The position numbers were made by a program, and so were the translations under genes. From IMG/VR virus record IMGVR_UViG_2778261182_000001: 6,282 nucleotides of DNA; one strand, written 5' to 3'. The number at the start of each line of letters is the position of its first letter. The first letter of the stretch is position 1. This DNA is from a virus (taxonomy: Duplodnaviria > Heunggongvirae > Uroviricota > Caudoviricetes). Of the stretch, positions 4,630-5,097 are shown piece by piece. The notes under the pieces are model-generated. The model was not told where the DNA came from. It was given only the letters and a program-made list of their open reading frames with translations, and did not search any database.

Positions 4630-4661
4630 AAAATAAAAACAAAAACCCGCCGAAGCGGGTT
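4630..4661 (-). terminator. Rho-independent terminator of the hok mRNA
   Basis: Minus strand reads ACCCGC-ttcg-GCGGGT followed by TTTTTGTTTTTATTTT, about 70 nt after the hok stop and preceded by the GGCGAGGGA-gaaa-TCCCTCGCC hairpin. Confidence 0.6.
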
Positions 4662-4729
4662 AAGTGTGGGTGCATTGAGGATGCCTGACTCATCAGAGGT
4701 GGCGAGGGATTTCTCCCTCGCCTGGTCTC

Positions 4730-4885
4730 TTACTCCTCAGGTTCGTAAGCTGTGAAGACAGCGACCTCCGTCTGGCCGGTTCGGATTCGTACCTCGCAGA
4801 GGTCTTTCCTCGTTACCAGTGCCGTCACTATGACGGTTAAACAGATGACGATCAGGGCGATTAGCATCGCCTTTTGCTGCTTCAT
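4730..4885 (-). CDS. hokD: Hok-family type I toxin (HokD/RelF-like), 51 aa
   Basis: Translation MKQQKAMLIALIVICLTVIVTALVTRKDLCEVRIRTGQTEVAVFTAYEPEE from ATG 4885. Single transmembrane helix plus the conserved Hok C-terminal region. From memory this matches E. coli HokD and is close to Gef/HokC. AAGGAGAAG RBS upstream. Confidence 0.85.
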   Translation of the reverse strand: MKQQKAMLIALIVICLTVIVTALVTRKDLCEVRIRTGQTEVAVFTAYEPEE

Positions 4886-4942
4886 AGCCTGCTTCTCCTT
4901 GCCTTTCGGCACGTAAGAGGCTAACCTACATGTGTTCAGCAT
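4730..4942 (-). CDS. mok-like upstream reading frame (70 codons), here in frame with hok
   Basis: ATG at 4942 with GAGG about 10 nt upstream gives a 19-codon in-frame N-terminal extension of hok (MLNTCRLASYVPKGKEKQA-). The other two frames are closed, one ending in a TGA that overlaps the hok ATG (ATGA). Position matches mok of hok/sok loci. Confidence 0.35.
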   Translation of the reverse strand: MLNTCRLASYVPKGKEKQAMKQQKAMLIALIVICLTVIVTALVTRKDLCEVRIRTGQTEVAVFTAYEPEE

Positions 4943-5005
4943 GGATTGAGCCTCAGATTAATGTTAAGCGTCTTGCAGGACGCGTAATGTTAACTGGGGC
5001 TTTTC
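4935..5005 (+). ncRNA. Sok-like antisense RNA candidate (about 70 nt) covering the mok RBS and start
   Basis: Plus-strand TTGCCT (4899-4904) - 17 nt - TAACCT (4922-4927) promoter-like hexamers. Predicted transcript has a short 5' tail, then a long stem (GCCTCAG 4950-4956 pairing CTGGGGC 4994-5000, one G-U) followed by TTTTCTC. Antisense to the mok SD and ATG. Confidence 0.35.
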
Positions 5006-5061
5006 TCTATCTGCCTTTTGGTGTTCATGCCTGAGGCAGATAGCCTCAAGCACCCGCAGCA

Positions 5062-5090
5062 ATTCTACTTAACTCACATCACCTCGCCAA
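5062..5090 (-). promoter_or_regulatory. hok mRNA promoter (TTGGCG - 17 nt - TAGAAT)
   Basis: Minus-strand -35 TTGGCG (5090-5085) and -10 TAGAAT (5067-5062). Predicted start just before GGUGCUUGAGGCUAUCUGCCUCAGG, which resembles the structured 5' end of hok mRNAs. Confidence 0.45.
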
Positions 5091-5097
5091 TATAAAA

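What the first reader, a model, noticed from the sequence alone, without database searches (positions are those of the whole stretch)
4630..5095. Complete hok/mok/sok-type type I TA locus inside the prophage early region, without relBE
The HokD-like toxin carries a full regulatory set: its own promoter (TTGGCG-17-TAGAAT), a structured 5' leader, a mok-like upstream frame, a plausible Sok-like antisense RNA with promoter and terminator, and a 3' hairpin plus terminator. As I recall, K-12 hokD is the last gene of relBEF and is described as lacking its own regulatory elements. This locus may be an autonomous, ancestral-type version of the hokD module in a Qin-like prophage, with possible roles in prophage stabilisation or phage exclusion.
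Basis: partly seen in the sequence, partly recalled or inferred. Interest (0 to 1): 0.55.

Follow-up and report, generated by a model that had tools for sequence, protein, structure and literature searches.

The report
Known prophage hokD/hokW-sok toxin-antitoxin cassette
This is a complete, ordinary copy of the well-known hok/mok/sok RNA-controlled toxin cassette that most E. coli strains carry in lambda-like prophages; the laboratory strain K-12 only has a truncated remnant of it behind relBE.

Summary
On the minus strand at 5090..4634 lies a full hok/mok/sok type I toxin-antitoxin locus. It has a promoter, a leader that matches Rfam RF01794 (120.5 bits), and a mok frame in frame with a 51-aa Hok identical to K-12 HokD. 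It also has a 3' hairpin, an fbi box and a terminator. A convergent Sok-like RNA (4934..5004, +) has its own promoter and terminator. Predicted folds reproduce the R1 scheme: tac/fbi closure with the mok SD paired to ucb in the full-length mRNA, and tac/ucb pairing after 3' truncation. There is no relBE remnant. K-12 homology stops at 4899/4900, inside the Sok -35 hexamer.

The locus is not new. Phage 933W annotates the same cassette as mokW/hokW/sokW. Its Sp5 copy was shown experimentally to be a working type I TA (PMC8621323), and that paper's probes match this window exactly. A complete copy is present in 3928 of 5426 complete E. coli genomes, against 1167 with the K-12 relE-hokD junction.

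One side observation may be worth following. A 26-nt hypervariable patch at the mok start and Sok 5' tail sits in otherwise near-identical loci. Interest in the finding itself is low.

The parts
5062..5090 (-). hok promoter: -35 TTGGCG (5090..5085), 17-nt spacer, -10 TAGAAT (5067..5062)
   Evidence: Promoter scan. The -10 and its spacing to +1 are conserved in 933W, THO-006 and mEp460. Promoter activity was not tested.
4634..5055 (-). Full-length hok mRNA, about 420 nt. The +1 is inferred at 5055; the 3' end lies in the T-run after the terminator.
   Evidence: The Rfam model starts at 5055. MFE is -173.3 kcal/mol with z = -7.65.
5044..5055 (-). tac element (GGGUGCUUGAGG) at the mRNA 5' end
   Evidence: Pairs with fbi in the full-length fold and with ucb in the 3'-truncated fold. 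Paired in 100% of cells across 57 distinct homologues.
4996..5001 (-). ucb / anti-SD (AGCCCC)
   Evidence: Pairs with the mok SD region in the full-length fold and with tac in the truncated fold. This matches the scheme described for R1 in PMC9841398.
4951..4954 (-). mok Shine-Dalgarno (GAGG), 8 nt before the mok AUG
   Evidence: Read from the sequence. Invariant in 57 homologues.
4730..4942 (-). mok-like reading frame (70 aa). It starts 57 nt upstream of hok and is in frame with it.
   Evidence: It has the same length as the annotated mokW of 933W. An R1-type plasmid locus has the same in-frame arrangement.
4730..4885 (-). hok CDS (51 aa plus stop), with SD AAGGAG at 4900..4895
   Evidence: Pfam PF01848, 81.6 bits. 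PHROG 251, E = 2.8e-33. 100% identical to K-12 HokD, 92% to HokW, 42% to R1-type Hok.
4701..4722 (-). 3' UTR hairpin (GGCGAGGGA-GAAA-TCCCTCGCC)
   Evidence: 99.4% of cells paired; G-U/A-U/G-C variation at one pair.
4668..4680 (-). fbi element (CCUCAAUGCACCC), complementary to tac with one bulged base
   Evidence: The R1-type locus uses a different complementary pair of sequences, GGCGCUU/AAGCGCC, in the same architecture.
4634..4661 (-). Intrinsic terminator of the hok mRNA (stem 4661..4644, then a T-run)
   Evidence: Terminator scan.
4899..4927 (+). Sok promoter: -35 TTGCCT (4899-4904), 17-nt spacer, -10 TAACCT (4922-4927)
   Evidence: Same geometry as TTGCGC-17-TATCCT in the R1-type locus. 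The 30-mer YO-597 that spans it matches 100%. The -10 mutagenesis primer YO-421 of PMC8621323 maps onto it. That mutation abolished antitoxin activity in Sp5.
4934..5004 (+). Sok-like antisense RNA (about 71 nt): 5' tail complementary to the mok start region, long hairpin, then GGGGCUUUU
   Evidence: Coordinates transferred from the sokW misc_RNA of 933W. The fold has z = -5.99. The sokW Northern probe YO-592 matches 4934-4963 exactly.
4899..4900 (.). Breakpoint of homology with the K-12 Qin relE-hokD arrangement
4925..4950 (.). Hypervariable patch (mok AUG flanks; Sok nt 1-17 plus the Sok discriminator)

Best explanation
The region is an intact, autonomous hok/mok/sok type I toxin-antitoxin cassette of the hokD/hokW lineage. 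It sits in the nin (delayed-early) region of a Qin-like lambdoid prophage and points the same way as the surrounding phage genes.

Inferred mechanism, following the plasmid R1 paradigm:

1. A sigma-70 promoter makes a stable hok mRNA of about 420 nt.
2. This full-length mRNA is locked shut by pairing of its 5' end (tac) with a box near its 3' end (fbi). The mok ribosome-binding site is meanwhile paired to an upstream anti-SD (ucb).
3. Slow 3' trimming removes fbi. tac then pairs with ucb, which frees the mok start site. Ribosomes starting at mok give access to the hok reading frame.
4. The 51-aa Hok peptide inserts in the inner membrane and kills or lyses the cell.
5. A convergent promoter inside the leader makes a short, unstable antisense RNA (Sok). 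Sok pairs with the mok start region, blocks translation and targets the duplex for RNase III.
6. Hok is therefore made only when Sok supply stops.

The most likely biological context is prophage induction, or loss of the prophage.

Shown here: the presence and conservation of all sequence elements, and the predicted alternative pairings. Inferred: transcription, RNA processing, toxicity in this host, and the biological role.
For: - Family matches: Rfam hok-leader model 120.5 bits; Pfam HOK_GEF 81.6 bits; PHROG 'MokW-like host killing', E = 2.8e-33.
- Toxin: 100% identical to K-12 HokD. That protein was toxic when expressed (bioRxiv 10.1101/2025.08.07.668861).
- Near-identity to a known cassette: the locus is nearly base-for-base identical to the annotated mokW/hokW/sokW of 933W, from the -10 through fbi. 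It shares the same Sok-target allele.
- Link to experiments: the probes and primers of PMC8621323 match exactly. That paper showed toxicity of HokW, neutralisation by sokW from its own promoter, loss of protection on -10 mutation, partial dependence on RNase III and Hfq, and HokW production after mitomycin C.
- Folding: the full-length fold shows tac/fbi closure and SDmok/ucb pairing, z = -7.65. The truncated fold shows tac/ucb. An R1-type locus shows the same architecture with different complementary sequences. The R1 scheme is described in PMC9841398.
- Conservation: 96.7% of cells are paired across 57 distinct homologues, against 35-45% for slid controls.
- Context: all family-supported ORFs in the window are on the same strand (RusA, Q, DUF968, DUF551). 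In the related prophage L001 the Cro/CI-type regulator and replication genes lie upstream, also on that strand.
Against: - There are no expression or phenotype data for this particular copy. Both promoters and both RNA ends are inferred by homology.
- The tac/fbi helix is invariant within the 57 close homologues, so that set supplies conservation but no covariation.
- The folds are thermodynamic predictions only.
- Several chromosomal hok/sok loci were reported unable to mediate post-segregational killing (summary in the bioRxiv paper).
- The NCBIfam Hok subfamily HMM scores below its curated cut-off (48.5 vs 73 bits).
- In Sp5 and 933W the cassette sits at the other end of the prophage, so the induction-linked role may not transfer to this position.
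Confidence: 0.93

Rival explanations
1. The cassette is structurally complete but silent in this context. It would be a hitch-hiking 'moron' with no post-segregational killing and no measurable phenotype, as reported for several chromosomal hok loci.
For: [quoted passage not shown] A single-copy locus may be hard to activate (PMC1635323).
Against: No inactivating change is visible, and all elements are kept across 57 distinct homologues. hok third-codon positions and most of the leader are almost invariant, which argues for ongoing constraint. The same Sok allele is functional in Sp5.
Confidence: 0.15
2. Its main role is prophage stabilisation (killing of cells that lose the prophage) or abortive-infection exclusion of other phages, and not help with lysis at induction.
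For: R1 hok/sok stabilises plasmids and reduces T4 plating (cited in PMC8621323). hok genes are about 4-fold enriched in prophages.
Against: The only experiment on this lineage found RecA-dependent HokW production at induction and about 2-fold more released phage with the locus present. That paper's sections read here report no stabilisation or exclusion assay for hokW-sokW. Hok was not found enriched near defence systems.
Confidence: 0.3
3. The Sok-like and mok-like features are chance patterns, and only the hok ORF is real. That would make this a HokD gene expressed by read-through, as in K-12.
For: Single promoter-like hexamer pairs occur by chance about once per 900 nt. The consensus scan did not pick up the Sok -10, TAACCT.
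Against: Rfam E = 6.5e-28 for the leader. The Sok promoter, mok AUG and Sok hairpin are conserved in 57 homologues and in an R1-type plasmid at homologous positions. sokW was detected by Northern blot with a probe identical to this sequence.
Confidence: 0.02

Closest known systems
mokW/hokW/sokW of Stx2 phage 933W (NC_000924) and Sakai prophage Sp5
   Same: The leader, mok start, Sok promoter, Sok RNA, hok SD and fbi are nearly base-for-base identical, and the Sok-target allele is the same. mok is 70 codons and hok 51 codons in both. Hok is 92% identical. The Sp5 probes match exactly.
   Different: Four C-terminal residues of Hok differ (TAYEPEE vs VDYESEK). The terminator and downstream flank differ. 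The -35 region upstream differs. In 933W the cassette lies near attR, beyond the tail genes; here it lies in the nin region between DUF551 and rem/DUF968/RusA/Q.
relB-relE-hokD (relF) of the K-12 Qin prophage
   Same: The HokD protein is identical. The 3' UTR, fbi, terminator and downstream genes (rem, ydfU) are the same; window 2866-4899 aligns at 90.8%.
   Different: K-12 keeps only 14 nt upstream of the ATG. It lacks the hok promoter, tac, ucb, mok start, and Sok promoter and RNA, and has relE instead. The K-12 junction occurs in 1167 of 5426 genomes, the complete form in 3928 of 5426.
hok/mok/sok (parB) of plasmid R1 and IncFII plasmids
   Same: Same architecture. The Rfam leader model matches (87 bits for the plasmid, 120 bits here). 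mok starts 57 nt upstream and in frame. The Sok promoter is at the homologous position with a 17-nt spacer. Both folds show 5'-3' closure of the full-length mRNA.
   Different: Hok is only 42% identical. The tac/fbi and Sok sequences differ. One is plasmid-borne and the other prophage-borne. The R1 system is shown to stabilise plasmids.

Membership tests
hok/mok/sok type I toxin-antitoxin family | Small hydrophobic Hok/Gef-family toxin ORF (about 50 aa) | tested here: met
   Pfam PF01848, 81.6 bits against a cut-off of 22. PHROG 251, E = 2.8e-33. 42% identity to R1-type Hok. The NCBIfam subfamily HMM is below its cut-off.
hok/mok/sok type I toxin-antitoxin family | Conserved structured hok mRNA leader | tested here: met
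   Rfam RF01794, 120.5 bits against a gathering score of 59, full-length match 1-157. The same model hits an R1-type plasmid locus on the hok-sense strand.
hok/mok/sok type I toxin-antitoxin family | Upstream mok frame with its own SD, overlapping hok | tested here: met
   SD GAGG at 4954..4951 and ATG at 4942. The 70-codon frame runs through hok. The ATG is invariant in 57 homologues.
hok/mok/sok type I toxin-antitoxin family | Cis-encoded antisense Sok RNA, with its own promoter and terminator, opposite the mok translation start | tested here: met
   Sequence level only. The promoter is TTGCCT-17-TAACCT. The hairpin plus U-tail folds with z = -6. It is homologous to the annotated sokW. The Northern probe is identical. 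Transcription in this strain is not testable with these tools.
hok/mok/sok type I toxin-antitoxin family | Long-range tac/fbi pairing that closes the full-length mRNA | tested here: met
   The MFE fold pairs nt 1-12 with nt 376-388. 100% of cells are paired in 57 sequences, but the helix is invariant, so there is no covariation within the clade. The R1-type locus has different complementary sequences in the same place.
hok/mok/sok type I toxin-antitoxin family | Alternative tac/ucb pairing after 3' processing, which frees the mok SD | tested here: met
   Predicted fold of 5055..4684: GGGUGCUU pairs with AAGCCCC, and the SD region is largely unpaired. This is a prediction only; processing itself was not tested.
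hok/mok/sok type I toxin-antitoxin family | U-turn (YUNR) target loop for rapid Sok recognition | not tested
   Recalled from the R1 literature. It was not examined here.
hok/mok/sok type I toxin-antitoxin family | Toxicity of Hok, neutralisation by Sok, and post-segregational killing | not testable with these tools
   Literature only. HokD was toxic on expression. hokW-sokW was shown to be a functional TA.
K-12-type relBEF operon (hokD as third gene) | relE immediately upstream of hokD, with no hok leader | tested here: not met
   tblastn with RelE and RelB finds nothing credible in the window (best E = 0.06). blastn finds only the shared 14 nt. The leader is present.

The most novel reading that the evidence does not exclude
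Within prophage hokD/hokW cassettes that are otherwise almost identical and encode the same toxin, a 26-nt patch around the mok start codon is hypervariable. This patch is window 4925-4950 and covers the first ~17 nt of Sok and its target. It shows at least 15 alleles among 57 distinct sequences. Pairwise difference is 0.28 per site, against 0.013 at hok third-codon positions.

This could reflect diversifying selection for mutually orthogonal Sok specificities. Under that reading, several prophages in one cell would each keep an independent addiction or lysis switch, and a resident Sok could not disarm an incoming cassette. The 2026 Hok survey that was consulted states that it did not analyse Sok or Mok. 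Whether the pattern has been reported elsewhere is unknown.
Probability: 0.3. Interest if true: 0.45.

Novelty: already known. Interest (0 to 1): 0.1.

Why it matters
For the finding itself there is little consequence. It documents one more complete copy of a cassette annotated in phage 933W, tested experimentally in 2021, and present in about three quarters of complete E. coli genomes. Its practical value is for annotation. RefSeq labels only the 'hokD' CDS and omits mok, Sok and the RNA elements. The Rfam family named 'sok' in fact matches the hok-sense leader. The case is also a reminder that the K-12 relBE-hokD arrangement is the less common, rearranged form. If the hypervariable Sok-recognition patch proves to be a set of specificity alleles, it would be a compact natural example of antitoxin-RNA orthogonality among co-resident prophages.

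Tried and rejected
- Source of the window: an exact-pattern scan of genome contigs for the window's fbi variant found nothing. That collection has one genome per species, so it could not identify the source. A whole-window megablast found no complete E. coli genome covering 80% or more; the best was 92% identity over 74%. The prophage is therefore a mosaic, and the host strain remains unidentified.\n- Sub-threshold Rfam hits were set aside. An isrK-like match at 4640-4721 (26 bits against a gathering score of 50) is just the hok 3' hairpin plus terminator. A 'sok' match on the + strand at 4996-5149 (19 bits, E = 0.48) reflects the near-palindromic leader hairpin.\n- A possible + strand transcript at 5105-5346, from a promoter-like site to a terminator-like site and antisense to the small hydrophobic ORF, folds no better than shuffles (z = -0.47). 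A second type I TA pair there was therefore not pursued.\n- The + strand ORF that phage HannyBb annotates in this stretch has a non-coding substitution pattern (3 synonymous, 16 non-synonymous codon changes).\n- Pedersen & Gerdes 1999 (PMID 10361310) is not held in the library. The statement that K-12 hokD was inactivated by rearrangement is taken from PMC12214031, from my own knowledge, and from the alignment made here.\n- One literature search failed on syntax.\n- ARAGORN did not call the tRNA that is cut off at 1-71, although Rfam detects it.\n- Covariation in tac/fbi could not be shown within the close homologues, because the helix is invariant.

Full report
**1. What is in the sequence**

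The region was read on both strands. The toxin gene is on the minus strand.

- The hok CDS runs 4885..4730 and encodes 51 aa: MKQQKAMLIALIVICLTVIVTALVTRKDLCEVRIRTGQTEVAVFTAYEPEE.
- A longer frame starts at ATG 4942, 57 nt upstream and in the same frame, giving the 70-aa 'mok-like' ORF.
- The 70-aa product matches Pfam HOK_GEF at 81.6 bits. The 51-aa product matches PHROG 251, 'MokW-like host killing', at E = 2.8e-33.
- The 51-aa protein is 51/51 identical to K-12 HokD, 92% identical to HokW of phage 933W and 42% identical to R1-type plasmid Hok.
- Rfam RF01794 ('sok') matches 5055..4880 on the minus strand over its full length: 120.5 bits, gathering score 59, E = 6.5e-28.
- That match is on the hok-sense strand and ends in the hok AUG. 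The same holds for an R1-type IncFII plasmid locus (L007 332-503, 87 bits). In practice this Rfam model recognises the hok leader.

**2. The regulatory set, element by element**

It ends 7 nt before the start of the Rfam match at 5055.
- The scan also finds an intrinsic terminator at 4661..4644 followed by a T-run.
- The Sok promoter on the + strand is TTGCCT (4899-4904), 17-nt spacer, TAACCT (4922-4927). The scan missed it because the -10 is weak.
- This promoter lies at the position homologous to TTGCGC-17-TATCCT in the R1-type locus.
- The phage 933W record annotates mokW (213 nt), hokW (156 nt) and a 71-nt sokW misc_RNA.
- The window aligns with that locus almost base for base from the -10 through fbi.
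- Folded alone, this RNA has a free 5' tail, a long hairpin and a GGGGCUUUU tail (-33.4 kcal/mol, z = -5.99).

**3.

- The full-length mRNA (5055..4636, 420 nt) folds to -173.3 kcal/mol with z = -7.65.
- In that fold, nt 1-12 (GGGUGCUUGAGG, tac) pair with nt 376-388 (CCUCAAUGCACCC, fbi, window 4680..4668).
- The mok SD region pairs with AGCC of an upstream AGCCCC box (ucb, 5001..4996).
- After removal of the 3' end including fbi (5055..4684), the 5' GGGUGCUU instead pairs with AAGCCCC, and the SD region is largely unpaired.
- This is the closed-to-open switch (tac/fbi to tac/ucb) described for R1 hok mRNA (PMC9841398).
- An R1-type plasmid mRNA folds into the same closed architecture using different complementary ends, GGCGCUU/AAGCGCC.
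- I mapped the window's structure onto 57 distinct homologues (alignment A2). 96.7% of cells pair, against 35-45% when partners are slid by 1-3 columns.
- The tac/fbi helix is paired in every sequence but is invariant. This set therefore gives conservation and no covariation for that helix.
- A few compensatory changes occur in the first leader hairpin and in the Sok-target hairpin.

**4. Relation to K-12 and relBE**

- K-12 matches the window only up to 4899.
- The K-12 Qin segment aligns with window 2866-4899 at 90.8% identity (ydfU/DUF968, an unnamed ORF, rem, hokD) and then stops.
- Upstream of that point K-12 has relE and relB.
- The breakpoint at 4899/4900 lies 14 nt before the hok ATG and inside the Sok -35 hexamer.
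- K-12 therefore lacks the hok promoter, tac, ucb, the mok start and Sok. The Rfam model finds nothing there at gathering threshold.
- tblastn with RelE and RelB, and blastn with the K-12 upstream region, find no remnant in the window.
- PMC12214031 states that the K-12 hok loci other than hokB were inactivated by insertion elements or by rearrangements that removed canonical TA components.

**5. How common it is**

- A match to 4640-5095 is found in 4726 of 5426 complete E. coli genomes.
- 3928 genomes have a place covering at least 80% of it. The median is 2 places per genome and the maximum 10. 534 places are on plasmids.
- RefSeq labels the CDS 'hokD' throughout.
- The K-12-type relE-hokD junction is present in 1167 genomes.
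- Of 80 IMG/VR viral contigs encoding the identical toxin, 77 have the leader and 2 have the relE junction.
- 79 phage records match; they are annotated MokW, HokD toxin, gef or host killer protein.
- The complete form is therefore the common one, and K-12 carries the less common, rearranged one.

**6. Experimental knowledge that transfers**

Takada et al. 2021 (PMC8621323) studied hokW-sokW of Sakai prophage Sp5. They reported the following:

- HokW arrests growth.
- sokW expressed from its own promoter neutralises it.
- Mutating the sokW -10 removes protection, and sokW in trans restores it.
- RNase III and Hfq contribute partially.
- After mitomycin C, sokW RNA disappears and HokW appears in the inner membrane in a RecA-dependent way.
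- Deleting the locus halves phage release.

Several of their oligonucleotides match the window exactly:

- the sokW probe at 4934-4963;
- the hokW probe at 4897-4926;
- primers at 4882-4903, 4929-4954 and 4865-4885.

Their -10 mutagenesis primer maps onto 4903-4928 with four mismatches. The window also carries the same Sok-target allele as 933W. This is as close as sequence can get to saying that the Sok, the leader and the promoters here are the ones tested. The Hok protein differs at four C-terminal residues and equals K-12 HokD, which was toxic on expression.

**7. Context and likely role**

- All family-supported ORFs in the window are on the minus strand: DUF551 (5998..5429), rem-like (4513..4262), DUF968 (3915..2866), RusA (2853..2482), Q antiterminator (2501..2106) and an ORF6N protein (1827..1255).
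- In the related prophage of strain THO-006, the Cro/CI-type regulator and the replication genes lie upstream on the same strand, and the lysis genes lie downstream.
- The cassette is thus in the nin (delayed-early) region and is co-directional with those early genes, so rightward early (pR-type) transcription would be expected to run through it. 'Early region' is therefore a fair description.
- It is my inference, and untested, that antiterminated read-through at induction could interfere with the convergent Sok promoter. That would explain induction-linked Hok production.
- In 933W the cassette sits near attR on the same strand as the leftward early genes such as N and int. This would be compatible with the same idea after circularisation.
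- Stabilisation or exclusion roles remain possible but have no direct support for this lineage.

**8. Verdict on the finding**

The locus is already known: it is annotated as mokW/hokW/sokW in phage 933W, it has been tested experimentally in Sp5, and it is widespread. There is no evidence of anything unusual in this copy.

**9. Side observations**

(a) Hypervariable patch.
- In the 57-sequence alignment, one patch is far more variable than the rest. It spans columns 106-131, which is window 4950..4925. It covers the spacer between the mok SD and AUG, mok codons 2-6, the first ~17 nt of Sok, and the Sok discriminator.
- Mean column entropy there is 0.67 bits, against 0.02-0.24 elsewhere.
- Mean pairwise difference is 0.276 per site. 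It is 0.013 at hok third-codon positions and 0.03-0.08 in the other untranslated parts.
- There are at least 15 alleles.
- Two contigs from one genome (L047, L064) carry different alleles.
- Because Sok is cis-encoded, every change alters Sok and its target together. The pattern is what selection for orthogonal antitoxin specificities would produce. Old recombining alleles or relaxed constraint are not excluded.
- The recent Hok survey states that it did not analyse Sok or Mok.
- Caveat: the loci were selected for an identical toxin, and only distinct sequences were counted.

(b) mok frame variant. In seven of these sequences a 2-nt deletion makes mok a 19-codon frame whose TGA overlaps the hok ATG.

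(c) Small hydrophobic ORF.
- A 29-codon ORF (GTG 5187..5098, SD GGGAGG) ends 8 nt before the hok -35.
- It is present in 16 of 83 related loci.
- Its substitutions favour third-codon positions (10 of 19 variable sites). Codon changes are 10 synonymous to 9 non-synonymous, against 3 to 16 for the opposite-strand ORF.
- It has no Pfam, PHROG or NCBIfam match.

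Noticed in passing
window 4925-4950 (alignment A2 columns 106-131): A hypervariable patch around the mok AUG and the Sok 5' tail, in otherwise near-identical hokD-type cassettes. Pairwise difference is 0.276 per site against 0.013 at hok third-codon positions, with at least 15 alleles in 57 distinct sequences. The window's allele equals that of 933W sokW. These may be Sok specificity alleles.
   Followed up: partly
window 5098-5187 (- strand); SD GGGAGG at 5198..5193: A conserved 29-codon hydrophobic ORF (VLVLKCALAIAAVMAIYCLVIVLMNHLSD) ends 8 nt before the hok -35. 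It is present in 16 of 83 related loci. Its substitution pattern is coding-like (10 synonymous, 9 non-synonymous codon changes; 10 of 19 variable sites at third positions). It has no family match and is not annotated in RefSeq; phage HannyBb annotates the opposite strand instead.
   Followed up: partly
L009, L019, L028, L031, L060, L064, L085 (mok region, about 640-700 in each locus): In seven related loci a 2-nt deletion after the mok ATG, plus a 1-nt insertion, turns mok into a 19-codon frame whose TGA overlaps the hok ATG (ATGA). In the window, and in an R1-type plasmid, mok is an in-frame N-terminal extension of Hok.
   Followed up: partly
L025, L038, L066, L086 (A2 columns 62-100): A subgroup has a 21-nt shorter, different Sok-terminator / Sok-target hairpin, with compensatory changes at three base pairs. 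This looks like a second Sok body type attached to the same toxin.
   Followed up: no
window 4880-5055 (- strand); L007 332-503: The Rfam family RF01794, named 'sok antitoxin', matches the hok-sense strand and ends in the hok AUG, both here and in an R1-type plasmid. It behaves as a hok-leader model and not as a Sok model, which matters for strand annotation.
   Followed up: partly
window 1255-2078 (- strand): A P1/P7-style c4 antisense immunity module lies just downstream of the Q antiterminator gene. It comprises isrK (1989-2065, 79.5 bits), c4 a1b1 targets (2026-2078), C4 antisense RNA (1880-1963, 71.4 bits) and an ORF6N-domain protein (1827..1255).
   Followed up: no
window 1-71 (- strand): A tRNA gene is cut off by the window edge (Rfam 63 bits). 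ARAGORN does not call it.
   Followed up: no
window 4744-4747 (- strand): The Tyr47 codon of hok sits in a UACG motif, the TadA A-to-I editing context. K-12 hokD mRNA is reported as edited at about 6%, which would recode Tyr to Cys (PMC12214031).
   Followed up: no
whole window 1-6282: No complete E. coli genome covers 80% or more of the window; the best match is 92% identity over 74%. The prophage is a mosaic not represented as a whole in that collection.
   Followed up: partly
L079 about 930-982: One related locus carries an insertion of about 32 nt that duplicates part of the hok terminator.
   Followed up: no
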